NCBI GenBank assembly: GCA_041650835.1 | Contig: JBAZKL010000004.1 | Location: 230,900-294,899 of the forward strand | Reading direction: 5' to 3' | DNA: 64,000 nt | DNA from: Candidatus Omnitrophota bacterium | GTDB lineage: Bacteria > Omnitrophota > Gorgyraeia > Gygaellales > Profunditerraquicolaceae | Part shown: positions 54,872-64,000 of the stretch, one piece after another | Position numbering within the stretch: position 1 is the stretch's first letter | How the letters are laid out: every line of letters starts with the position of its first letter | Notes under the pieces: model-generated | Seen by the model: the letters and a program-made list of their open reading frames with translations, nothing else | Told to the model about the DNA's origin: nothing | The model's database searches: none | Program-made: the position numbers and the translations under genes

Positions 54872-56173
54872 TTATTTGCGGCCCTTTATATCTTTAATAA
54901 CCGTAACGATCCGAGTGACTTTGCCGCCTTCTAAAACAGGTATTTTCCTTGTTTCCGTGGAATAACGCTTATCTTTTATCTTAACTCTTTCTTTCGTAAC
55001 CAGCGTCTTTCTGGTTTTCAAGACTTTTTGATATTCATCATATACGCTTTCAGACAAAAAGGGGAAAACCTCAAACAATTCCTTGCCGATAACAGGGCCC
55101 TTAATCCGTATATTCTTAGTCCACTGCGTAAAGACCTTATTGAGCAAAAGGATCCGCAACTGACGGTCAACAACATGAACCGCGTCCCCCATCGAGTCCA
55201 GCGTCATACGATACTGCAATTCGGAGGACTTCCTCTTCTCTTCAGCAAGCTTATATTCGGTAATATCATACAAATGGCCCAGATAATGCGTAATACGGCC
55301 GGCATCATCCTGAGGAAGGATCGTAAAAACATGCACCCACTTATAGATACCGCCTAAACACCGGATACGGTATTCAGCTTCAAAACAGCCCGTGCTCTTC
55401 TTTATATTCTCTTTAACATCTTCTTCTAAACGCTTACGGTCATCAGGATGAAGCAGGTTAGCGTATAGTATCTTTCCGGTCATAAAATCGGCCGGTTCAT
55501 AGCCAAACTGGTTTGAAACATTTTCCGATACATACTCTACCGGCCAACCTTCCTGCGCCTTCCACTTGAATACTACGGTCGGGCCGCTGATAAACAATTT
55601 CCTTTCCGCATCCAGCTCTTCCTGTATCCTGATACGCTTATCGATCTCAAGATGAAGGTCTTCATTGGCTTTACTGAGTTCTGCGGTACGCACCTTGACC
55701 CGGATCCCCAATTCAGCCCGGGAATTCCGCAGATCTTCTTCCATTTTCTTACGCTCGGTAATATCAAAAATGACGCCTACCAACCCTCCGGTAAGGCCAA
55801 CTTCATTCAGAAATGTTTCTTTATAAAACACGACATTGTGCTTGGCGCCGTTTGTTGCGGAAACATAGCTTTCATATTCCTGAATGCCGCCTTCTTTAAA
55901 TAATTCCCGGTCTTTTTTATAGTAAATTTCAGCCAGGTCTTTCGGAAAAAGCTCAAAAACTGTCTTACCGATCAATTGCTCTTTCGATAAACCTACATAG
56001 CGCTCAAACTCCAGGTTACACCCTAAATACTTACCGGAAAAATCTTTATAGAAAATAGGAATAGGGATAGCATCGATCACGACCTGCAAGAAACGCAATT
56101 GCTCCTGCGATTCATTAAACGCCTGCTCTCTCTTGTTCGAAGCTGATTCGGAATTATGGTTTTGATCCTGCAT
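54872..56173 (-). CDS. Cytoplasmic sensor protein with three tandem PAS domains and no recognisable output domain.
   Basis: Three PAS-like repeats (IPIPIFYKDFSGKYLGCN...; GPTVVFKW...; MGDAVHVVDRQLRILLLNK...) separated by coiled-coil linkers. Confidence 0.7.
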   Translation of the reverse strand: MQDQNHNSESASNKREQAFNESQEQLRFLQVVIDAIPIPIFYKDFSGKYLGCNLEFERYVGLSKEQLIGKTVFELFPKDLAEIYYKKDRELFKEGGIQEYESYVSATNGAKHNVVFYKETFLNEVGLTGGLVGVIFDITERKKMEEDLRNSRAELGIRVKVRTAELSKANEDLHLEIDKRIRIQEELDAERKLFISGPTVVFKWKAQEGWPVEYVSENVSNQFGYEPADFMTGKILYANLLHPDDRKRLEEDVKENIKKSTGCFEAEYRIRCLGGIYKWVHVFTILPQDDAGRITHYLGHLYDITEYKLAEEKRKSSELQYRMTLDSMGDAVHVVDRQLRILLLNKVFTQWTKNIRIKGPVIGKELFEVFPFLSESVYDEYQKVLKTRKTLVTKERVKIKDKRYSTETRKIPVLEGGKVTRIVTVIKDIKGRK

Positions 56174-56271: not shown

Positions 56272-56299
56272 TATTATAACACTCGCTCTTAAGCTGTCA
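56272..56299 (-). promoter_or_regulatory. Near-consensus sigma70 promoter (TTGACA-16-TATAAT) for the PAS gene. It overlaps the stop of the upstream radical-SAM gene.
   Basis: Both hexamers match consensus exactly when read on the minus strand. Confidence 0.5.
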
Positions 56300-57415
56300 A
56301 CCTTTGATTTTGGCTTTTTTATCGAAAACCCCGGAAGGATATCCGGATTTGACCTCAAAAGGATACTCGTGGTACTCGTAATCCAATTTAAAGAAAAGGC
56401 TCATTTGAGCCATTTTTTCAATGATCTTGCTGATTGGCTTATCTTGCGCGGATATAAAAGAGGGATTATTCCTTATTTTCAAATAGCGCGAATCAATACC
56501 CGGGCAAATAATGCCTAAGCCGCATTCCAGGCATTCTTTATGTGTATGAGCGCTTTGATTATAATTAAACATGGGTTCCGGTTTAAAGGATGTATTCTTT
56601 CCCAAAACCTGATCATTATAGAAAAACATTTTGTTTTTTCTCAGCTTTAACGGCAGCTCAAGGCAGAGATATTCAAAACCTTTATACAAACATAGTGGGA
56701 AACGGCTTATAACAACACCTATATCGTTACTAACCGCATATTTAATGACACTCTGAAGATAACCGGCAAACTTATTATAATCAGGGATAAGCTGCGGATC
56801 CTCACAGACCCGCCCCTCAAGATTAAGCGTCTTTATATGTACCAAAAAATCCCTGCCGCCTAAGAGCTTTTTCAACAGCTTGAAAACCGCCAGTATTTTA
56901 GTGTAATTGAGGGAATTCGGGATGAAATTAAAAAAGATCACCATTTTACTTTTATAATCCCTGATATTTTCCACCCCTCTGATCAACTCATCAAAAGCAT
57001 CCACGCCCATAAGGGCTCGAAACATCGCTTTATCGTGAGCATGCACGGAGATTTCAATAGAATCGAGGTATTTTAAGATCCGCCGCGCGAATTTCCGGTC
57101 AGCGAATTTAATGCCATTGGTGACTAAATACGTCTTTATCCCCTGACGGTGAATGAAGCGCAATATCTCCTCCAAGTCTTCCCGCAGCGTTGTCTCCCCC
57201 CCCATAAAATTGATCGCTTCAATACCCATCGATTTAAGCTTCAGCACAGTTTGTTTGATAACGCTCAAATCGACATTAACCGGGTGAGTATGCCGGCCTT
57301 CGGAGCAAAACAGGCAACGCGCGTTACAAAACGAAGTCACATTCAGGATCGCCGTCTCACCCTTGATCTTCCTAACGCCGGTCTTAAGATTTGGCAATAT
57401 GCTCATAATATTCAA
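56297..57415 (-). CDS. Radical SAM protein (CNARCLFC) with a C-terminal Cys-rich auxiliary-cluster region; last gene of the radical-SAM operon.
   Basis: CxxxCxxC in the first 35 aa, a GGE motif (NFMGGETTL) and a C-terminal HTHKECLECGLGIICPG. Confidence 0.75.
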   Translation of the reverse strand: MNIMSILPNLKTGVRKIKGETAILNVTSFCNARCLFCSEGRHTHPVNVDLSVIKQTVLKLKSMGIEAINFMGGETTLREDLEEILRFIHRQGIKTYLVTNGIKFADRKFARRILKYLDSIEISVHAHDKAMFRALMGVDAFDELIRGVENIRDYKSKMVIFFNFIPNSLNYTKILAVFKLLKKLLGGRDFLVHIKTLNLEGRVCEDPQLIPDYNKFAGYLQSVIKYAVSNDIGVVISRFPLCLYKGFEYLCLELPLKLRKNKMFFYNDQVLGKNTSFKPEPMFNYNQSAHTHKECLECGLGIICPGIDSRYLKIRNNPSFISAQDKPISKIIEKMAQMSLFFKLDYEYHEYPFEVKSGYPSGVFDKKAKIKG

Positions 57416-57420
57416 TAAAG

Positions 57421-59073
57421 TTATTTACCGGCACGTTGCCGGATATATGGCTTGCTCAGGGTGACAGAAACATCCTTTCCGATAAACTTTCTTGCCGCGT
57501 GGTCCCGGGTCTTAATAATAAATGACGCGGAAAACTCCCGGAATAATATAAATTTGCTTTGCATGGTATGTATCGCCTGGCCGCAATCAATAAAACAGGT
57601 TGACGGATATTTCCGCCTCAGGCCTCCTGAAGCGCGATGCCCATGCACCCAGACCTCAGGCATCAACTCCACAGGAAGAAGCTCAGTAAGCAACTGAGCG
57701 GCCTTGCCGACTTTTATCAAATCAACAGGGTAATGAGAGAACACGATCCTGATAGAATCGGCTTTCCTCTTTAAAATGTTCATCAGCTTCTCAAAGGTTT
57801 CTTCGCGTATCGTATCCGCAGCGGCCAATTCTTTATCGGCAGGAAAAGCGTCTATCGGTAAAATAATAGAGCAAATATTACCATCCTCGAAAAACGTAAA
57901 CAGCTTACCGCAAAGGTATTTACGAAACCACGTAAGGAGCGGCTTCCTGTTCTTATAAACATAGTCATGATTCCCCAGGACATGCGTGATCGATCTTCTC
58001 TGCGCACAAACAGCAAGAATTCTTTTATATGCCGTATACGCCGCGGCCCCCCGGTCGCCCTCCACCGTATCACCCACAAAAAAGCCTTTTGACCAGAAAA
58101 CCGAATTACTATCCCGCAGTATCGCCCCTACCTTGCCTGCGTTGGTTCCTGAGGCATGCAGGTCCGCGAGGCACCAGAAAGAAAGGTATTTATCCGGAGC
58201 GTTTATCGTGTTGAGCTCCCCCTCACAGCCTAAAGCGTCCCGGCAGCGAAGACACTCTTTTTTCTTACTTACCATTCTGTTTATAAGCGGCGCCAAGCGC
58301 TTGCGTTTACCGTCTTCAAAGACGACAGAGATATCCCTTACATTTGTATTTTCTTTGATCTTGAATTTATTCAAGCCTCTCGCGAGGCAGCGGGGGATAA
58401 AATAAAGCGTTCCCCGGGCCAAACGGACCGACGCGAGGTTACGGACTAACCTGCGGATATCCGCGTAGTCGAGCAATTTATCCTTATCGATATCGACTTC
58501 ACCGGTAAAATCAAGGCGGAAAGGCACTACCGGGCTTACCATAAAGAAATTAATGCCCCGTTGAGCGAAGAAATCGAGCGTCGTATGGGCATGGGCAATA
58601 TTATAACGGTGGAGCAAAAGGCTGCCCCCCAAATCTATCCCTTTTCCGCGAAGGTTCTTAATGCCCCGCGTGAGCTCCTGAAAACTTCCGCTTACCCCGG
58701 TAATCTTTTCATGGACACCTTGTTTATGCGAATGAAGCGAAAAGACCACCTTAGTCACGCCCGCCGCGACGATCCTCCTGCAAAAATCCCGATAATACAA
58801 CATCCTCCCGTTGGTAAAGAGCGTTATGTGCCTGAAGCCATTCTCGCGCGCCTGACTGACGTACTCAAATATACGCGGGCTGGTGGTAGGTTCCGCCCCT
58901 CTTAAATCAATGCGCGTAACTCCTCGCCCGGCAGCGTTCTTGATCGCCGCCAATACAAAATCTTTGTCGGGGGAGCCGGATGGATGGATTTTGCAAAAGA
59001 AGCATGCGTTATTACACGCATGGGTAAACTGAATGATGATTATTTTTTTACGTTTTTCTTCCAAACTCAACAT
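57421..59073 (-). CDS. Fusion protein: N-terminal radical SAM domain (CNNACFFC) plus a C-terminal calcineurin-like metallophosphoesterase domain.
   Basis: Radical-SAM core to about aa 300 (GAEPT, CLRCRDALGCEG), then MPP motifs ADLHAS, GDTVEGDRG, GNHD, HGH. Confidence 0.75.
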   Translation of the reverse strand: MLSLEEKRKKIIIIQFTHACNNACFFCKIHPSGSPDKDFVLAAIKNAAGRGVTRIDLRGAEPTTSPRIFEYVSQARENGFRHITLFTNGRMLYYRDFCRRIVAAGVTKVVFSLHSHKQGVHEKITGVSGSFQELTRGIKNLRGKGIDLGGSLLLHRYNIAHAHTTLDFFAQRGINFFMVSPVVPFRLDFTGEVDIDKDKLLDYADIRRLVRNLASVRLARGTLYFIPRCLARGLNKFKIKENTNVRDISVVFEDGKRKRLAPLINRMVSKKKECLRCRDALGCEGELNTINAPDKYLSFWCLADLHASGTNAGKVGAILRDSNSVFWSKGFFVGDTVEGDRGAAAYTAYKRILAVCAQRRSITHVLGNHDYVYKNRKPLLTWFRKYLCGKLFTFFEDGNICSIILPIDAFPADKELAAADTIREETFEKLMNILKRKADSIRIVFSHYPVDLIKVGKAAQLLTELLPVELMPEVWVHGHRASGGLRRKYPSTCFIDCGQAIHTMQSKFILFREFSASFIIKTRDHAARKFIGKDVSVTLSKPYIRQRAGK

Positions 59074-59086
59074 GGATGGACCTGCG

Positions 59087-60199
59087 CTATTTTACTCTCT
59101 CGGAATAATGATAAAAACAGCCTTTACAGGCGGGAGACAGGCTTCGGGCAAACAAAGCCCTTACCTCTTGCGCCTGATGGCCATTCCAGATTTCCGCAAA
59201 AGAACGCTCCTTAATATTACCTATAAAAACATCATGACAGATATAAATATCGCCATTAGGCATAAGATTGACCTGATGCCAGGGCGCCGTGCAATACCGG
59301 CGGTAATGTAATGCCCCCCGGTTATCTTTATAATACGGGATAATTTCATCCGGGTACAGATCCGGACTGAAAGACACCGCGCGGTTCTTTTTGACTTTCT
59401 TGATCTCGGCAATAAACCGGGAGAAATCAATATCCCCCGGAGAATAGGTATATCCCGGCCAAAGTTCAAGCGACGTAATATTGAACTTCTCCCGTAAAAA
59501 CTTTTTTTGCATTTCCAGCGTCTCCTGATTTATAAACATGAGATGCTGAAAATGGTAGTTGTCTACTGCTATGCCGGCCTGCCGCATGAACTCAATGAAC
59601 TCTCCCATATAAGCATAACTGAGATCCGAAAGAGTATATAAAACACTTAACCGGGGCCGGTTGGCGTGTTTTTTCTTATACAGCGTAAGAGCGTCCAACC
59701 CCTCGATGATCGCCTTAAAATGAGCGAAAGAATTCTCCCTGATCAAATGAAGGATTGACGGCGGGCCACCCAGGGAAAGACTGACCTGGTCTAATACCCG
59801 GACAACCTTTGTAAGGTTTTTTAAAAGATAGACGCCGTTTGTGGTAACGGAAACCCGCACCCCCCGTTCTTTAAAACACCGGGCAAGGTGGTACCAACGG
59901 GGAGATAAAAGCGGTTCCCCTCCCGAAAAAGTCACCGTCTTGGGGCTAAACGCCGTAATTTCCTGCGCGAATTTTTCCAGGTCTTTGCGGCTTAAAGAGG
60001 CTTTATATTTGTTAAGGAACCCTTTTTTTCTGCACGGCCCGTGGATCCCCCACCACGAACAAACTTTACAGCGCAGGTTACAGCGCAGTGAAAACATGAT
60101 ATAAACCTCTCCTACAGAAGAGGCCTTCAATAAATCATTACTGGCCCTTCCCTTAAGGGATAAAGCCAAAGCTTGCGTATCTACTTTTAGATCAAGCAT
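59087..60199 (-). CDS. Radical SAM / SPASM-domain protein (CNLRCKVC).
   Basis: SGGEPLL and a C-terminal SPASM pattern CTAPW...NGDIYICHDVFIGNI...CKGCFYHY. Confidence 0.8.
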   Translation of the reverse strand: MLDLKVDTQALALSLKGRASNDLLKASSVGEVYIMFSLRCNLRCKVCSWWGIHGPCRKKGFLNKYKASLSRKDLEKFAQEITAFSPKTVTFSGGEPLLSPRWYHLARCFKERGVRVSVTTNGVYLLKNLTKVVRVLDQVSLSLGGPPSILHLIRENSFAHFKAIIEGLDALTLYKKKHANRPRLSVLYTLSDLSYAYMGEFIEFMRQAGIAVDNYHFQHLMFINQETLEMQKKFLREKFNITSLELWPGYTYSPGDIDFSRFIAEIKKVKKNRAVSFSPDLYPDEIIPYYKDNRGALHYRRYCTAPWHQVNLMPNGDIYICHDVFIGNIKERSFAEIWNGHQAQEVRALFARSLSPACKGCFYHYSERVK

Positions 60200-62199
60200 C
60201 GCGCGTCTCCTGGTCCCTGCCGCTTGAGCGGGAAATACATATGCGAGTGAAAGAATTCCCAGAACATCTCCTCGATAATGAAATTATTCATAACGATCTC
60301 TTTTTCCCGAGAGCCGTTCTTATGCGAACGCATAAGACGGCATAACGCGGCGTCAAGTTCAGCGGTAAAAGCCTTACGATGCCCGGGAGCAGCGATATCG
60401 CCGATGTAAGCGGTTCTTTTAAGGTATTGAAAGCGTTTTGAGGAAATAAGGCTCCCGCAGAGATACATCTTGCCTTCGAGATCAACGGTAATCCCGGGGA
60501 ACGCAGCGCCGCAAGCGCCGGTTTGCCCGCAATTCAATATCTGAGCTGCCTTACGGAAATAAAGGTCCCTGCTTATTCTAAAAAGACAGACAAAAGCCCG
60601 TGCCACGCAAGACGCGTCATACAAAACAGCCGGATCATAAGAAAACATTATTTTTTTCACTCCCCGCCCTGCCAAAAAAGAAACATTTTCCTTAAAGCCT
60701 TCAAGATTTAATAAGGGGACATCCAGCATGACCCCGAAATCTCCGCCGCGATCATTGAAACGTTTTATCATTGCCGATACCTGCCGCTTTAAGGATGCCG
60801 GGCAAGCTCCACCATCGATCTTCAAAAGATACGTCACCTTCTGCCGTGAAAGAAAATCAATTTTTTCTTCATCAAGCGATAACCCGGGGCTTACCAGCGT
60901 GCAGGTAAGCTGCTTGGGATGAGAAGCCATTCTTTGCCGGGTATAGAGAAGTGCTGCCCTGATCATTTCAAAACACGCAAAAGGCTCTTTGCAGGAGAAT
61001 TCCAGTTCGACCTTATTCTCTAAAGAAGCAAACAGCATATCAATGCTTTTCTTTAAAGCCCTCTCACCCATGAACGCTTCAGTGCCCGCGCGGGAATAAG
61101 GGCGCTGCAGGGACCGCTCCGGGTGAAGAAAGAAAATGATTTTCCTGAATGAAAAATAACGCTCCCCCCTGATCTTCTTTTTGAACGGATGGCTCTCAAA
61201 GAGGTCGTATTCCCGGCGTAAATGATTAAATTTATATAAAAACTCTCCTGCGATCCCCGCATAAATATTAGCCAGCAATTTCCGGTCCAGGAAGCGGGCG
61301 TGCCTGCGGATAAGCGCTGCCTGCGCGCCTTTAGTCATTTTTAAAGCCGTCAACTCCTTAAAATCATCAAGTTTACCAAAATAAAAAATACGGTTTAATT
61401 CCGGGCACAGCTTCTCCAATACCAGCGCGCACCCGATAAAGACCTTTCCGCCGGCAGTGATATTGATCTGCGGACAATACAATATCGGCTCGCAATCAGC
61501 CTCAAAATTCAGGATCCGGCCCCCCGTCCCTTGTACTGCTTTGAGCAAACCACACAATTCCCGGATAAACACGAAAGAATCCTTCTCTGAATATTTCTGT
61601 CCCAGCGCGTAAGCGACCCAAATACGCAGCATCCCTTTACTTCTTAAAAAATCGATGTTCTTGCGCACCCCGGGAATATCTTCGCGCAAAACCACCATAT
61701 TCACGAAATATCGGATCTTATACTTATTCAACAGGCCGATATTGCGCAGCAACTGTGAAAAATAATCTTCATTCCCCGCCTTCATCGGCCTGTTCTTTAA
61801 CTGCGTCACCTGAGCGCCGTCAATACTGACCATGACCTGGACTTTCTCACGAAAAAGAAAACCGGCCTTCTCTTCATCAAGAAGCAGCCCGTTAGTCGTA
61901 AGCAAATATTCGATGTTTTTGCCGGTGGCCTTTTTTTTCATGCCCGCATACGCTACTGCTTTTTTGATCAGGTCGAAGCGCAGCAGCGGTTCACCGCCGA
62001 AAAACTGTAATTCTATCTTCTTCTCAAAAGAAGTAAATAACAGGTCAATGGACTTTTTCAGAACATCTTCCGGCATATCCGGCTGGTCGCGGTTTAAGAA
62101 ACAATACCGGCACGACAACGGACAACGGGTAGTAAGCATCACCGCGACATTACGGATGCTCGACGGTTCTTTAAAGCGCGTGAACTCCACGCGTTCCAT
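60187..62199 (-). CDS. Twin radical-SAM/SPASM protein: an intact N-terminal domain (CPLSCRYC) followed by a duplicated second domain lacking the CxxxCxxC triad. The start is probably MERVEF.
   Basis: Internal repeat evident (DLLFTSFEKKIELQFFGGEPLLRFDLIKKAVAYA vs DMLFASLENKVELEFSCKEPFACFEMIRAALLYT). Both halves end in Cys-rich SPASM-like segments. Confidence 0.75.
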   Translation of the reverse strand: MERVEFTRFKEPSSIRNVAVMLTTRCPLSCRYCFLNRDQPDMPEDVLKKSIDLLFTSFEKKIELQFFGGEPLLRFDLIKKAVAYAGMKKKATGKNIEYLLTTNGLLLDEEKAGFLFREKVQVMVSIDGAQVTQLKNRPMKAGNEDYFSQLLRNIGLLNKYKIRYFVNMVVLREDIPGVRKNIDFLRSKGMLRIWVAYALGQKYSEKDSFVFIRELCGLLKAVQGTGGRILNFEADCEPILYCPQINITAGGKVFIGCALVLEKLCPELNRIFYFGKLDDFKELTALKMTKGAQAALIRRHARFLDRKLLANIYAGIAGEFLYKFNHLRREYDLFESHPFKKKIRGERYFSFRKIIFFLHPERSLQRPYSRAGTEAFMGERALKKSIDMLFASLENKVELEFSCKEPFACFEMIRAALLYTRQRMASHPKQLTCTLVSPGLSLDEEKIDFLSRQKVTYLLKIDGGACPASLKRQVSAMIKRFNDRGGDFGVMLDVPLLNLEGFKENVSFLAGRGVKKIMFSYDPAVLYDASCVARAFVCLFRISRDLYFRKAAQILNCGQTGACGAAFPGITVDLEGKMYLCGSLISSKRFQYLKRTAYIGDIAAPGHRKAFTAELDAALCRLMRSHKNGSREKEIVMNNFIIEEMFWEFFHSHMYFPLKRQGPGDARCLI

Positions 62200-64000
62200 A
62201 TTTGCGGACATATGCGGACCAGACTCCTTCGCACCAGCCATTTTCTTTGCATGATGCGCAAAACTTAAACTTGATCTTTTTTGACGCGCGTTGTTTAACG
62301 CACTTACTCAAAGTACCCTTAAGCGTCATGACTTCATCAAAAGGACGGTACGGCTCAAAGGCGCGCAGGCTCAATTGAGCTAACGAACATAAAGGAAAAC
62401 CTTCGCAATAAAGCTTCCGGGTGAATTCCGGAAGCTGAGCGCTTATTCTGCGCAATTGGCGCGTAACTGCCGGTATCGCCGGGATGTCGGCTTGCGGGAC
62501 CTGTATATACCCCAACGAATTACTTACGAAAACAAGATGCAATTCATCAACACCCAGTTTTAGCAAGAACGCGCAGCATTCGTACAACGACTCAAGATTA
62601 GCGTTGGAGACAAAAAGGTCCGCCTGGATAGACAGGCAGCGCGCGTTCTCCCTGATATTCCTGATACCGGCAATTGCCTGGCGAAAAGCGCCTTTAACCA
62701 GGCTCTGCCGGTCATGAACATGCTCCAGCCCGAAAAAAGGTATAATGACTTTTTCCAAAGAGCTAAAACCCCCCAACGCTTTTACCAATCCCGGATACGA
62801 TAACAGACGGGCGTTGGTGTATAAGAAAAGGTTATGCATCTCCAACGCGTCGCTGTAACGCAGTATATCCATGATATCTTTCCTTAAGAGCGGCTCTGCG
62901 CCCGCCAAAACAACATACTCCCCTCTGCTCTTGGCAAGCTCAAGCTCTGAGCTTACCTGCGCGAAGCTTTTCTGCGCACGCAAGCGATCTTTCGCCAACA
63001 GGCAAAACTCACAATTATTATTACAGGTATTGGAGAGTTGTATAATGCTCGTCCGGGGCTTTATCATGCCGGAGAATTCTTCAAGCCTTTTTTCGCTATG
63101 CTCCAGGGTAAAAGCAGGCGGCGTGTGATCAGCGCCTAAATAATAATCTTTCCGGAGCAAGCCTTTCTGTTCAAAGATATCATGGATCAGCGTCATCGGA
63201 TAGACTTTGACAATGTTCACCAGCAGGTTATCCGGGTCACAATCACGGACATAACAGGCGGTTTCCCTTATCGTCTCCTCTGTTTCACCCAGATTTCCGA
63301 CCATAAGCATAAGAACAGTCCTGATCCCCGCGCGCGCGGTAAGCCGAAAGGCCTTTTTTGACTTTACTAAATCAAGGTTCTTGCCGGTCAAACGCTGGAT
63401 CCGCACGGATGCGCTCTCTAATCCATAAGATATCTCAAAACAGCCTGCCCGCGCCATGAGGACCAGTAACGGCGCGTCGACCGAATCTGAACGGGTCATA
63501 CATGTCCAGCTTATTTTAAGCCCTGCTTTCAGGATCCCTTCGCATATCGCGACAACTCTTTTCCTGTCCCGTGTAAAGAAATTATCGCCAAAAACAAAAT
63601 TCCTGATCTTGAACTTTTCATGAAAATGCCCGACCATCGCGACAAAATACCCGGGGCTGTGAAAGCGTATCTTGTCCCCCGTCACCTTGCTCATCGGGCA
63701 AAAATTACAACTATAGACACAACCGCGGGAAGAAAGCAATAAGAGAGCGTTGCGGAAGCTTGTGCAGCGCTTCCCCAGGATAAAATTTTTCTTAGCTGAA
63801 AGGCTGTCCGGGCAGTTTATCTTTTTCTGAAAACCCTTAAAAAGATGGAACGCAGGATAAGCCAGGCGATCCAGATCGGTAATACCGCGCCGGTCTTTGG
63901 TACGCGCCACTTTCCCATGCCGCAGATACGCGATCCCGTCAATCGCGCCGGTATCTCCTTTTGTTTTCAGGCAAGAGACTAATTCGACAAAAGTCCGCTC
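62171..64000 (-). CDS. Class-B (B12-binding type) radical SAM protein carrying a second radical-SAM domain. The 5' end is partial: the reading frame stays open to the window edge.
   Basis: ...IDGIAYLRHGKVARTKDRRGITDLDRLAYPAFHLF...SSRGCVYSCNFC (class-B hallmark), then LSNTCNNNCEFC (second CxxxCxxC) and C-terminal CASCKENGWCEG. No stop between 63910 and 64000. Confidence 0.75.
   Translation of the reverse strand, partial: ERTFVELVSCLKTKGDTGAIDGIAYLRHGKVARTKDRRGITDLDRLAYPAFHLFKGFQKKINCPDSLSAKKNFILGKRCTSFRNALLLLSSRGCVYSCNFCPMSKVTGDKIRFHSPGYFVAMVGHFHEKFKIRNFVFGDNFFTRDRKRVVAICEGILKAGLKISWTCMTRSDSVDAPLLVLMARAGCFEISYGLESASVRIQRLTGKNLDLVKSKKAFRLTARAGIRTVLMLMVGNLGETEETIRETACYVRDCDPDNLLVNIVKVYPMTLIHDIFEQKGLLRKDYYLGADHTPPAFTLEHSEKRLEEFSGMIKPRTSIIQLSNTCNNNCEFCLLAKDRLRAQKSFAQVSSELELAKSRGEYVVLAGAEPLLRKDIMDILRYSDALEMHNLFLYTNARLLSYPGLVKALGGFSSLEKVIIPFFGLEHVHDRQSLVKGAFRQAIAGIRNIRENARCLSIQADLFVSNANLESLYECCAFLLKLGVDELHLVFVSNSLGYIQVPQADIPAIPAVTRQLRRISAQLPEFTRKLYCEGFPLCSLAQLSLRAFEPYRPFDEVMTLKGTLSKCVKQRASKKIKFKFCASCKENGWCEGVWSAYVRKYGTRGVHAL

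What the first reader, a model, noticed from the sequence alone, without database searches (positions are those of the whole stretch)
60187..62241. Internally duplicated radical-SAM/SPASM protein with a catalytically degenerate second copy
The two halves are clearly homologous (DLLFTSFEKKIELQFFGGEPLL vs DMLFASLENKVELEFSCKEPFACF), but only the first retains CxxxCxxC. Both retain C-terminal Cys-rich SPASM-like segments (CEPILYCPQ...GCALV and CGQTGACGAAF...YLCGS). A pseudo-radical-SAM domain that keeps its auxiliary cluster could act as a substrate-binding or scaffold module. The gene overlaps both neighbours.
Basis: seen in the sequence. Interest (0 to 1): 0.65.

Follow-up and report, generated by a model that had tools for sequence, protein, structure and literature searches.

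The report
Radical SAM enzyme with dead twin
This Omnitrophota gene fuses two copies of a peptide-modifying radical SAM enzyme; the second copy has lost its catalytic iron-sulfur site but is still kept by selection, probably as a non-catalytic helper lobe, inside an operon of radical SAM genes related to the His-Xaa-Ser (HXS) peptide-maturation system.

Summary
Residues 56-352 and 391-677 of the 684-aa protein are homologous (BLAST E 4e-23; hhalign 99.9%, E 2e-31; 85 bits against 16.5±2.1 for shuffles). Only the first copy has CxxxCxxC. The second copy alone still models as an anSME/CteB-type radical SAM fold.

Neither half hits Pfam SPASM or has CX2CX5CX3C. Each has only a Twitch-like C-x5-C…C triad. 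It is invariant in the N-half, but its middle Cys is lost in two of the four orthologues in the C-half.

The dead copy is not decaying. Its dN/dS is 0.31-0.44, against 0.17-0.26 for the active half and about 0.7 for the former cluster loop.

The protein is a fusion of two unit types (A and C) of a family that occurs singly, in tandem or in triple fusions. About 170 units were surveyed, and only this clade (dead C) and one other lineage (P0019, dead A) have lost the motif, so the losses are reciprocal.

Homologous radical-SAM arrays in Omnitrophota, Elusimicrobia and others carry (HxS)n…SHGQW peptides plus HxsD. That ties the family to the HXS system, but no HxsA or HxsD lies within 74 kb here.

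Verdict: a new variant of a known kind, of moderate interest.

The parts
60187..62241 (-). Whole gene: tandem radical SAM protein, 684 aa from the first ATG. The likely real start is M11 at 62211, giving the 674-aa product P0001.
61186..62169 (-). N-half (residues 25-352): the catalytically competent type A unit of the family.
   Evidence: Pfam Radical_SAM 69.4 bits over residues 36-187. It clusters with type A units. pLDDT is mostly above 90.
62101..62124 (-). CPLSCRYC: the only CxxxCxxC radical-SAM cluster motif (C40/C44/C47).
   Evidence: invariant in the 4 orthologues
61978..62046 (-). Family hallmark DLLFTS…ELQFFGGEPLL, which includes the GGE SAM-binding motif of copy 1.
61429..61494 (-). 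N-half Twitch-like Cys triad C250-x5-C256-x14-C271.
   Evidence: Invariant in the 4 orthologues. Other type A units keep only the last Cys. The match to the anSME AuxI spacing is from my own knowledge and the weak alignment.
61072..61185 (-). Linker and former beta1/cluster loop of copy 2 (residues 353-390). The Cys loop is replaced by RSLQRPYSRAG.
   Evidence: Indels among orthologues, and the loop is deleted in P0004. dN/dS is 0.68-0.72. pLDDT is below 50.
60190..61071 (-). C-half (residues 391-684): pseudo radical SAM unit, a degenerate type C unit.
   Evidence: Its best profile match is type C, at 124.8 bits against 93.9 for type A. It has no Pfam hit at E<=10. The AF2 model of this half alone has pLDDT 77.9, and its best PDB matches are CteB and anSME at E about 1e-10. 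dN/dS is 0.31-0.44.
60979..60999 (-). Eroded GGE motif of copy 2: FSCKEPF here, but SGGEPLA in P0003.
60457..60531 (-). C-half Cys triad C571-x5-C577-x17-C595 (CGQTGAC…YLC).
   Evidence: C571 and C595 are invariant, but C577 is R or F in P0003 and P0004. hhalign aligns it to the N-half triad. There is a weak alignment to the anSME and CteB hairpin.
60190..60201 (-). C-terminal RCLI with invariant C682, at the end of the conserved tail FFHSxMYFP…RCLI.
   Evidence: the tail is modelled with pLDDT below 50
62171..63910 (-). Upstream operon partner, cut by the window end. The full protein is 739 aa: B12-binding domain, class-B-like rSAM, and an HxsC-like rSAM.
   Evidence: orthologous to L008_737 and L004_738 at 48-49% identity
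59087..60199 (-). Downstream operon partner: a 370-aa rSAM protein with a true SPASM domain.
   Evidence: Pfam SPASM 50 bits. It is conserved next to the tandem in L004, L008 and L010 at 54-58% identity.
57421..59073 (-). Operon partner: an HxsC-like rSAM fused to a metallophosphoesterase (550 aa).
56297..57415 (-). Operon partner: an HxsC/MoaA-like rSAM (372 aa).

Best explanation
The gene encodes two fused units (types A and C) of a family of HxsB/PapB-like radical SAM peptide maturases that lack a full SPASM domain. The A unit (N-half) is a working radical SAM enzyme. It has the SAM-cleaving [4Fe-4S] site and probably a three-Cys Twitch-like auxiliary cluster.

The C unit (C-half) has lost the cluster loop, the GGE and ribose SAM-binding motifs, and the family-specific TQxxNRP and EPxLxSPQ motifs, so it cannot cleave SAM. 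It is still kept as a folded (beta/alpha)6-plus-hairpin lobe under purifying selection. I infer that it acts as a non-catalytic partner lobe of an obligately two-lobed enzyme. It would hold or thread the repetitive peptide substrate, or dock the other radical SAM enzymes of the operon, while the A lobe does the chemistry.

Shown here: homology of the halves, loss of the motifs, the fold, purifying selection, rarity of the loss, the reciprocal loss in P0019, and the conserved operon slot.

Inferred: the scaffold or substrate-handling role; that the substrate is an (HxS)n HxsA4-like peptide encoded elsewhere in the genome; and any Fe-S content of the pseudo lobe.
For: - **Homology of the halves:**
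- **Motif erosion in copy 2:** shown against 46 aligned units.
- **Fold:** the full-length AF2 model has pLDDT 80.9 and pTM 0.80, with the same beta/alpha order in both halves. The C-half alone has pLDDT 77.9, and its best PDB matches are CteB, anSME, TigE, ChlB and SkfB.
- **Selection:** dN/dS is 0.26/0.17 for the N-half, 0.44/0.31 for the C-half and 0.72/0.68 for the ex-cluster loop, against P0002 and P0004 respectively.
- **Rarity:** among 245 units in the fetched proteins and 169 units in 85 loci, only this clade and P0019 lack CxxxCxxC. An exhaustive phmmer search of 1.84 billion representatives finds one representative for the pseudo clade.
- **Reciprocal loss:** the window's pseudo half scores best against type C (124.8 against 93.9 bits). 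The pseudo unit of P0019 scores best against type A (189 against 124 bits), and its C unit is intact.
- **Conserved slot:** the tandem sits between orthologous B12-rSAM and SPASM-rSAM genes in L004, L008, L010 and the window.
- **Link to HxS peptides:** (HxS)n…SHGQW peptides occur in 17 family-bearing loci, and HxsD or HxsD-rel in 11. L026, in the same assembly as orthologue P0004, is one of them.
- **Precedent:** HxsB and HxsC mature HxsA in the characterised HXS system (PMC13128918).
Against: - No biochemical data exist for any member of this family.
- No HxsA or HxsD gene lies in the window or the 10 kb beyond it, so the substrate of this operon is not identified.
- I had no model coordinates or PAE, so the inter-lobe interface and the location of a peptide groove are untested.
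- Purifying selection on the C-half shows that it has a function, not which one.
- Three Cys of the pseudo half (C571, C595, C682) are invariant, which leaves room for an Fe-S role rather than a purely structural one.
Confidence: 0.55

Rival explanations
1. The pseudo half keeps an auxiliary [4Fe-4S] cluster on C571/C577/C595, perhaps with C682 from the C-terminal tail. It would work as an Fe-S module, for example as an electron relay to the active lobe or to other radical SAM enzymes of the operon.
For: The triad CGQTGAC…YLC aligns with the N-half triad. It also aligns, below threshold, with the AuxI hairpin of anSME (SSCGMNGTC…YPC) and CteB. C571, C595 and C682 are invariant in the four orthologues. 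Auxiliary clusters of PapB take part in intermolecular electron transfer (PMC10470005). From my own knowledge, three-Cys auxiliary clusters with an open site are known in CteB and MoaA.
Against: C577 is Arg in P0003 and Phe in P0004. Cys in the C-half are not preferentially conserved: 4 of 11 are invariant against a 46% background. The loop 573-577 is modelled with pLDDT below 50. The active type C relatives have only the last Cys of the triad. Neither half has a SPASM hit or a CX2CX5CX3C motif.
Confidence: 0.2
2. The second half is a decaying relic with no function. It is retained only because too little time has passed, or because removing it would disturb translational coupling with the downstream gene.
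For: All catalytic motifs are eroded, and the former cluster loop evolves almost neutrally with indels. The C-half is less conserved than the N-half: 58-86% against 74-90% identity.
Against: dN/dS is 0.31-0.44 over 282 codons at dS up to about 1.0. The reading frame is intact in four orthologues from different samples. The fold is predicted with confidence. The hallmark helix KKSIDMLFAS and the C-terminal tail FFHSxMYFP…RCLI are strongly conserved.
Confidence: 0.1
3. The second half is still a radical SAM catalyst and uses a non-canonical cluster motif.
For: From my own knowledge, non-canonical motifs exist in the superfamily (ThiC, HmdB). The window protein has extra Cys near the old active site: C417, C423 and C447.
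Against: C417 and C423 are Gly/Arg/His in P0003 and P0004, and only C447 is invariant. The GGE, TTNG and SIDG motifs are eroded. Pfam Radical_SAM gives no hit at E<=10.
Confidence: 0.03
4. At the operon level: the six-gene radical SAM operon here does not act on an HxS-repeat peptide at all. It would instead make or modify a small molecule such as a lipid or cofactor, and the family link to Hxs would be only ancestral.
For: No HxsA, HxsD or other small-peptide candidate lies next to this operon in three syntenic genomes. B12-rSAM and metallophosphoesterase fusions are also common in small-molecule pathways (one search lists such families among the weak hits). Radical SAM suites in Elusimicrobia were proposed to make a cofactor (10.1101/765248).
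Against: The nearest structural and sequence relatives of the target are all peptide or protein maturases: CteB, anSME, PapB, nif11, CcpM, HxsB and QhpD. The family co-localises with (HxS)n peptides in 17 loci. The genome of orthologue P0004 encodes HxsA, HxsD and HxsD-rel at a second array.
Confidence: 0.25

Closest known systems
HxsB (TIGR03978) of the His-Xaa-Ser (HXS) system: HxsA-D, an antiphage system in Pseudomonadota (PMC13128918)
   Same: It is a radical SAM peptide or protein maturase of the same clade. Both halves hit the HxsB profile (133.7 bits for the whole protein, 35.1 for the C-half alone). The neighbours hit HxsC and HxsC4. Homologous arrays carry HxS-repeat peptides (HxsA4-like), HxsD and HxsD-rel.
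   Different: The score is far below the HxsB cut-off of 370. The protein has no SPASM domain, no N-terminal extension, and a tandem fusion with a dead second unit. The operon has 6 or more radical SAM genes instead of 2, and no HxsA or HxsD is adjacent here. The peptides in related loci are short membrane-anchored proteins with up to about 30 HGS repeats ending in SHGQW, not a peptidoglycan-binding protein with 5 repeats. The host phyla are Omnitrophota, Elusimicrobia and others rather than Pseudomonadota.
SPASM/Twitch peptide maturases with solved structures: CteB (5wgg/5why), anSMEcpe (4k36-4k39), ChlB, TigE, SkfB, SuiB; and PapB (NF047865)
   Same: These are the best sequence and fold matches for both halves. 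They share the partial TIM barrel followed by a beta-hairpin flanked by Cys, with C-x5-C…C as in AuxI.
   Different: There is no CX2CX5CX3C second-cluster motif, no RRE domain, and no Pfam SPASM hit. The auxiliary Cys are not conserved across the family.
TIGR04347 family pseudo-SAM/SPASM proteins (NCBIfam name)
   Same: They are a precedent, by name, for a radical-SAM-fold protein without the canonical SAM-cluster site that is nevertheless retained.
   Different: They are stand-alone proteins that keep a SPASM domain. Here the pseudo unit is fused in cis to an active paralogue and has no SPASM. The family does not appear among the 25 listed (of 61) hits for the whole target, nor among the 9 hits listed for the C-half alone. 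It appears only as a weak hit of the neighbouring genes.
Multi-domain radical SAM fusions with two active sites, such as FbiC (CofG+CofH) (own knowledge), and the active tandems of this same family (P0016, P0122, P0005-P0018)
   Same: Two radical-SAM-fold units on one chain. The active A-C tandem P0122 (675 aa) is the direct functional ancestor type.
   Different: In those proteins both units keep CxxxCxxC. Here one is dead, and in P0019 it is the other one.

Membership tests
Radical SAM superfamily (PF04055) | [quoted passage not shown] | tested here: met
   The N-half has C40/C44/C47, invariant in the orthologues. The C-half has none, and its loop is replaced or deleted, so the feature is met for copy 1 only.
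Radical SAM superfamily (PF04055) | Profile match above the gathering score | tested here: met
   The N-half scores 69.4 bits against a cut-off of 29.5. The C-half alone has no Pfam hit even at E<=10. Its membership rests on homology to copy 1 and to family profiles.
Radical SAM superfamily (PF04055) | Partial (beta/alpha)6 TIM-barrel fold | tested here: met
   Both halves show it in the AF2 models. Foldseek's best matches are anSME and CteB: E 3e-16 for the full-length model and 1e-10 for the C-half alone.
SPASM domain (PF13186) | Seven-Cys motif including CX2CX5CX3C, binding two auxiliary clusters; profile match | tested here: not met
   There is no PF13186 hit for the whole protein at E<=0.1 or for either half at E<=10, and no CX2CX5CX3C motif. 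The downstream neighbour (59087-60199) does have SPASM, at 50 bits.
Twitch-type (single auxiliary cluster) radical SAM | Cys ligands flanking a beta-hairpin after the barrel, conserved among orthologues | tested here: inconclusive
   The N-half triad C250/C256/C271 is invariant in 4 of 4 orthologues but absent from other type A units. In the C-half, C571 and C595 are invariant and C577 is present in 2 of 4. Actual cluster binding cannot be tested with these tools.
HxsB equivalog (TIGR03978) | Score of at least 370 bits | tested here: not met
   133.7 bits, covering only profile positions 75-229.
PapB family (NF047865) | Score of at least 340 bits | tested here: not met
   163.1 bits. It is the best NCBIfam hit but far below the cut-off.
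HXS system (HxsA/B/C/D) | HxS-repeat protein HxsA and HxsD encoded with the paired radical SAM genes | tested here: not met
   Neither is present in the window plus L001, about 74 kb in total. HxS-repeat peptides are present in 17 homologous loci and HxsD or HxsD-rel in 11. One of these is L026, in the same assembly as orthologue P0004.
HXS system (HxsA/B/C/D) | HxsC partner radical SAM gene | tested here: inconclusive
   The neighbours' best or near-best NCBIfam hits are HxsC4 and HxsC, at 70-81 bits. These are far below the cut-offs of 268-500.
HXS system (HxsA/B/C/D) | Antiphage function | not testable with these tools
   It has been shown only for the E. coli-type four-gene system (PMC13128918). 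PADLOC v2 has no HXS model, and the only hits are generic viperin-like ones.

The most novel reading that the evidence does not exclude
The A-C tandem would be an obligate intramolecular pseudo-heterodimer in which one live active site is enough and either lobe can be the dead one: C in this clade, A in P0019. The dead lobe would then be a cis-acting pseudo radical SAM module. It would take over substrate recognition or threading of long (HxS)n repeat peptides, a role played by RRE domains or HxsD-type partners in other systems. It might still hold a three-Cys Fe-S centre. This would be the first described pseudoenzyme domain of the radical SAM fold used in this way, within a much expanded Hxs-type pathway of 6 to 13 or more radical SAM genes per locus.
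Probability: 0.3. Interest if true: 0.7.

Novelty: new variant of a known kind. Interest (0 to 1): 0.5.

Why it matters
Pseudoenzyme domains are well known for kinases, phosphatases and proteases. My searches of the held literature found none described for radical SAM enzymes. Here a natural pair of reciprocal knock-outs (dead C in this clade, dead A in P0019, both live in P0122) gives a direct handle on what the second lobe of these tandem maturases does beyond catalysis.

The finding also exposes a large system. Arrays of 6 to 13 or more radical SAM genes in Omnitrophota, Elusimicrobia, Spirochaetes and others are built around poly-(His-Gly/Ala-Ser) peptides ending in SHGQW and HxsD-like proteins. 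I found no paper in the held library that describes them. They are relatives of the recently characterised four-gene HXS antiphage system. If they make heavily modified HxS polymers, both the chemistry and the biological role (defence, metal binding, envelope function) are open and testable.

Tried and rejected
- **Failed search:** The search for homologous proteins with the C-half alone returned no hit at all, although P0001-P0004 contain that sequence. I treat this as a tool artefact. I replaced it with the exhaustive representative search.
- **Unavailable library:** the afdb50 fold library was not available, so I could not look for other two-lobed models.
- **Literature:** searches for tandem, dual or pseudo radical SAM domains found nothing relevant. 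Papers on Omnitrophota and radical SAM concern lipid enzymes (Tes, Mss, Hbs) and giant proteins, not this operon.
- **Lipid pathway considered and set aside:** hits to Tes, ladderane and Hpn families are weak and generic, and the target's nearest relatives are all peptide maturases.
- **Recent self-duplication considered and rejected:** the C-half scores better against type C units of other lineages than against its own N-half clade (124.8 against 95.6 bits). It also occupies the slot of the type C unit in P0005 and P0122.
- **PADLOC:** only generic viperin-like similarity.
- **Nitrogenase-paralogue link:** I checked whether the Elusimicrobia array (L018, from GWA2_69_24) includes the paralogues reported by Méheust et al. 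None is present within the 21.8 kb held.
- **Precursor peptide near the operon:** no (HxS)3+ repeat and no relative of HxsD, HxsD-rel or the secreted protein family was found in any frame of the window or L001-L003.
Full report
**1.

The ORF at 60187..62241 on the minus strand encodes 684 aa. The identical public protein P0001 (674 aa, Candidatus Omnitrophota MAG) starts at M11, which has an AAGGAG upstream. CxxxCxxC occurs once, at C40/C44/C47.

Formal self-alignment is unambiguous:
- BLASTP aligns residues 56-352 to 391-677 at 27% identity, E about 4e-23.
- hhalign of the four-orthologue profiles of the two halves gives 99.9% probability, E 2.1e-31 and 285 aligned columns.
- The observed 85.1 bits compares with 16.5±2.1 for 200 shuffles.

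The gene overlaps both neighbours.

**2. How the second copy has degenerated**

I aligned 46 repeat units from 33 homologues. In copy 2:
- The cluster loop LTxxCQxxCxYC is replaced by FLHPE-RSLQRPYSRAG. It has indels among orthologues and is deleted outright in P0004.
- GGEPLL becomes SCKEPFA, although P0003 still has SGGEPLA.
- TTNG becomes VSPG.
- The family-specific TQxxNRP segment is deleted.
- EPxLxSPQ becomes GACGAAFPG.

Beta1 (RKIIFFL) and the hallmark helix KKSIDMLFAS survive. Pfam finds nothing in the C-half even at E<=10. NCBIfam still detects PapB, nif11, SCIFF and HxsB maturase profiles over residues 33-134 of the C-half at E 1e-9 to 1e-11.

**3. Both halves have the same fold**

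The full-length AF2 model has pLDDT 80.9 and pTM 0.80. Both halves show the same order of six beta/alpha repeats, a beta-hairpin and C-terminal helices. Its best PDB matches are anSMEcpe, CteB, ChlB, TigE and SuiB.

The C-half modelled alone has pLDDT 77.9 and pTM 0.79. It retrieves the same set (CteB, anSMEcpe, TigE, ChlB, SkfB, SuiB, PqqE) at E about 1e-10 and TM about 0.59.

**4. The auxiliary-cluster claim is weak**

Neither half has a SPASM domain. There is no PF13186 hit and no CX2CX5CX3C motif. What exists is one Cys triad per half:
- N-half: C250-x5-C256-x14-C271.
- C-half: C571-x5-C577-x17-C595.

hhalign aligns the two triads Cys to Cys. Both resemble the AuxI hairpin of anSME and CteB, though that alignment is below threshold.

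The N-half triad is invariant in the four orthologues, but other type A units keep only the last Cys. In the C-half, C571, C595 and the C-terminal C682 are invariant, while C577 is Arg in P0003 and Phe in P0004. Overall, 4 of 11 C-half Cys are invariant against 46% of all columns. An Fe-S site in the pseudo lobe is therefore possible in this protein, but it is not a conserved feature. I give that reading 0.2.

**5. Evolution of the tandem**

The family domain occurs in several architectures:
- alone (about 405 aa);
- in tandem (about 646-698 aa);
- in tandem plus an HxsC-like third radical SAM domain (about 950-1030 aa, up to 1333 aa);
- fused to B12-binding radical SAM domains.

Units cluster into types. 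The window's N-half is type A. Its pseudo half scores best against type C, at 124.8 bits against 93.9 for A and 85.3 for B. P0019 is the mirror image: its first unit lacks the Cys loop and scores best as type A (189 bits), while its second unit is an intact type C. P0122 (675 aa) has both units intact.

The tandem sits in a conserved slot. The 739-aa B12-rSAM gene is 48-49% identical to L008_737 and L004_738. The 370-aa SPASM-rSAM gene is 54-58% identical to its counterparts in L004, L008 and L010.

Loss of the motif is rare:
- Only the copy-2 units of P0001-P0004 and the first unit of P0019 lack it, among 245 units in the fetched proteins.
- The same two lineages are the only ones among 169 units in 85 loci.
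- An exhaustive search of 1.84 billion representatives with the pseudo half finds one representative for its clade and only 3 proteins at E<=1e-30.

**6. The dead copy is under selection**

Nei-Gojobori dN/dS values:

| Region | vs P0002 | vs P0004 |
|---|---|---|
| N-half | 0.26 | 0.17 |
| Former cluster loop | 0.72 | 0.68 |
| C-half | 0.44 | 0.31 |

dS is about 0.16 against P0002 and about 1.0 against P0004. The pseudo lobe is thus constrained, though less so than the catalytic lobe, while the obsolete loop drifts. This argues against a functionless relic.

**7. Genomic context**

The gene is the third of six consecutive radical SAM genes:
- a 1115-aa rSAM-B12-rSAM protein;
- a 739-aa protein with a B12-binding domain, an rSAM domain and an HxsC-like rSAM domain;
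- the target;
- a 370-aa rSAM/SPASM protein;
- a 550-aa rSAM-metallophosphoesterase fusion;
- a 369-aa rSAM protein.

The first gene, and the 5' end of the second, lie beyond the window end. The operon lies between AddAB-like genes and a PAS protein followed by rpsB-tsf-pyrH-frr. The rest of the window is housekeeping. The arrangement is syntenic in P0002, P0003 and P0004.

Related arrays elsewhere have up to about 13 radical SAM genes. In 17 family-bearing loci they include small proteins ending in (HxS)n…SHGQW. Eleven loci also have HxsD or HxsD-rel. For the L010 genes, the scores are:
- the peptide against HxsA4: 48.8 bits, cut-off 55;
- HxsD (TIGR03976): 50.1 bits, cut-off 50;
- HxsD-rel (NF038315): 64.5 bits, cut-off 41.

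No such gene lies in the 74 kb available here. However, the assembly that holds orthologue P0004 (JBAZTA01) has a second array with HxsA, HxsD, HxsD-rel and three secreted paralogues. That locus is L026.

The canonical four-gene HXS system was recently shown to be an antiphage system in which HxsB and HxsC mature HxsA (PMC13128918).

**8. Most likely mechanism**

This is inferred, at confidence 0.55. The A lobe performs radical SAM chemistry on a repetitive peptide. The dead C lobe is retained as the second lobe of an obligately two-lobed enzyme and serves substrate handling or assembly with the other operon enzymes.

The reciprocal case, P0019, suggests that one live site per A-C pair can suffice. 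The rivals are an Fe-S relay module (0.2), a neutral relic (0.1) and non-canonical catalysis (0.03). Separately, at the operon level, a small-molecule substrate is possible (0.25).

**9. Comparison with known families**

The protein works like, and descends from, the HxsB/PapB/CteB/anSME group of peptide maturases. It fails the membership cut-offs for HxsB (133.7 against 370 bits) and PapB (163.1 against 340 bits), and it lacks SPASM.

By name, NCBIfam's TIGR04347 'pseudo-SAM/SPASM' family is a precedent for retained radical-SAM-fold proteins without the canonical site. Those are stand-alone proteins that keep SPASM.

Radical SAM suites of up to 13 genes were noted in groundwater Elusimicrobia next to nitrogenase paralogues (10.1101/765248). 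L018 comes from one of those genomes and carries an HxS peptide and HxsD, but no Nif gene within 21.8 kb.

**10. Verdict**

The feature is real, well-defined and rare. It is a new variant of a known kind: a pseudo radical SAM lobe fused to an active paralogue in an expanded Hxs-type system. I score its interest as moderate (0.5). The wider poly-HxS multi-rSAM system may be the more valuable lead.

Noticed in passing
L006 16125-16442(-), L010 11264-11566(+), L012, L017, L018, L020, L024, L026 20753-21106(+), L027, L034, L039-L041, L045, L048, L051, L063: Small proteins carry a basic N-terminus, one hydrophobic segment and a C-terminal run of about 5 to more than 30 His-Xaa-Ser repeats (mostly HGS or HAS) that always ends in SHGQW-stop. 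They lie next to arrays of the target family in Omnitrophota, Elusimicrobia, Spirochaetes and other MAGs. The best NCBIfam match is HxsA4, just below its cut-off.
   Followed up: partly
L009 17930-19613, L010 9521-9982, L026, L015, L027: One to three paralogous small secreted proteins (150-210 aa, signal peptide, conserved ITTYYPSPxGxYD motif, C-terminal Cys) lie immediately upstream of HxsD in the arrays. The one scanned (L010 9521-9982) has no NCBIfam match. They could be further substrates.
   Followed up: partly
window 57421-59073 (-): A radical SAM domain (HxsC4-like) is fused to a calcineurin-like metallophosphoesterase domain (550 aa). The same fusion recurs in a distant array (L006, 513 aa, 27% identity), so it is a conserved part of these systems.
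   Followed up: partly
window 62171-64000 (-) and L001 4447-10041: The upstream ORF is cut by the window end. The full protein is 739 aa (B12-binding domain, rSAM, HxsC-like rSAM). It is preceded by a 1115-aa rSAM-B12-rSAM protein and AddAB-like helicase and nuclease genes, so the operon has six radical SAM genes with about eight live radical SAM domains.
   Followed up: yes
L003 and L026 (both from assembly JBAZTA01, GCA_041662125.1): One Omnitrophota genome carries two separate arrays. One is the six-gene operon orthologous to the window's, without HxsA or HxsD. The other has about 13 radical SAM genes with HxsA4-like, HxsD, HxsD-rel and secreted paralogues.
   Followed up: partly
window 60190-60294 (residues 650-684): The C-terminal tail EFFHSxMYFP(L/I)K…(A/T)RCLI is strongly conserved and ends three residues after the invariant C682. 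It is modelled as disordered. Its purpose is unknown: a cluster ligand or a docking motif are possibilities.
   Followed up: no
L018 (Elusimicrobia bacterium GWA2_69_24): This genome was reported to have many radical SAM genes near novel nitrogenase paralogues (10.1101/765248). The locus held here has family units, an HxS-repeat peptide and HxsD, but no Nif-like gene within 21.8 kb. Whether the reported suites are these Hxs-type arrays remains open.
   Followed up: partly
window 54872-56173 (-): A protein made only of PAS domains (433 aa, three PAS units, no output domain) lies directly downstream of the operon. It is syntenic in all four orthologous loci and could be a sensor or regulator of the operon.
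   Followed up: no
(tool behaviour): A word-indexed homology search with the C-half alone returned no hits, although the database holds the identical sequence inside P0001. The exhaustive search did find it.
   Followed up: yes
window 219-53510: The rest of the window is ordinary core genome on the minus strand: BamA, DnaB, SurA-like, LeuA, IlvB/IlvD-type, GAF-HD, DUF4139, PtsI and CofD. The rpsB-tsf-pyrH-frr assignment comes from the precomputed gene calls for the same contig. The radical SAM operon is therefore not on an obvious mobile or defence island.
   Followed up: partly
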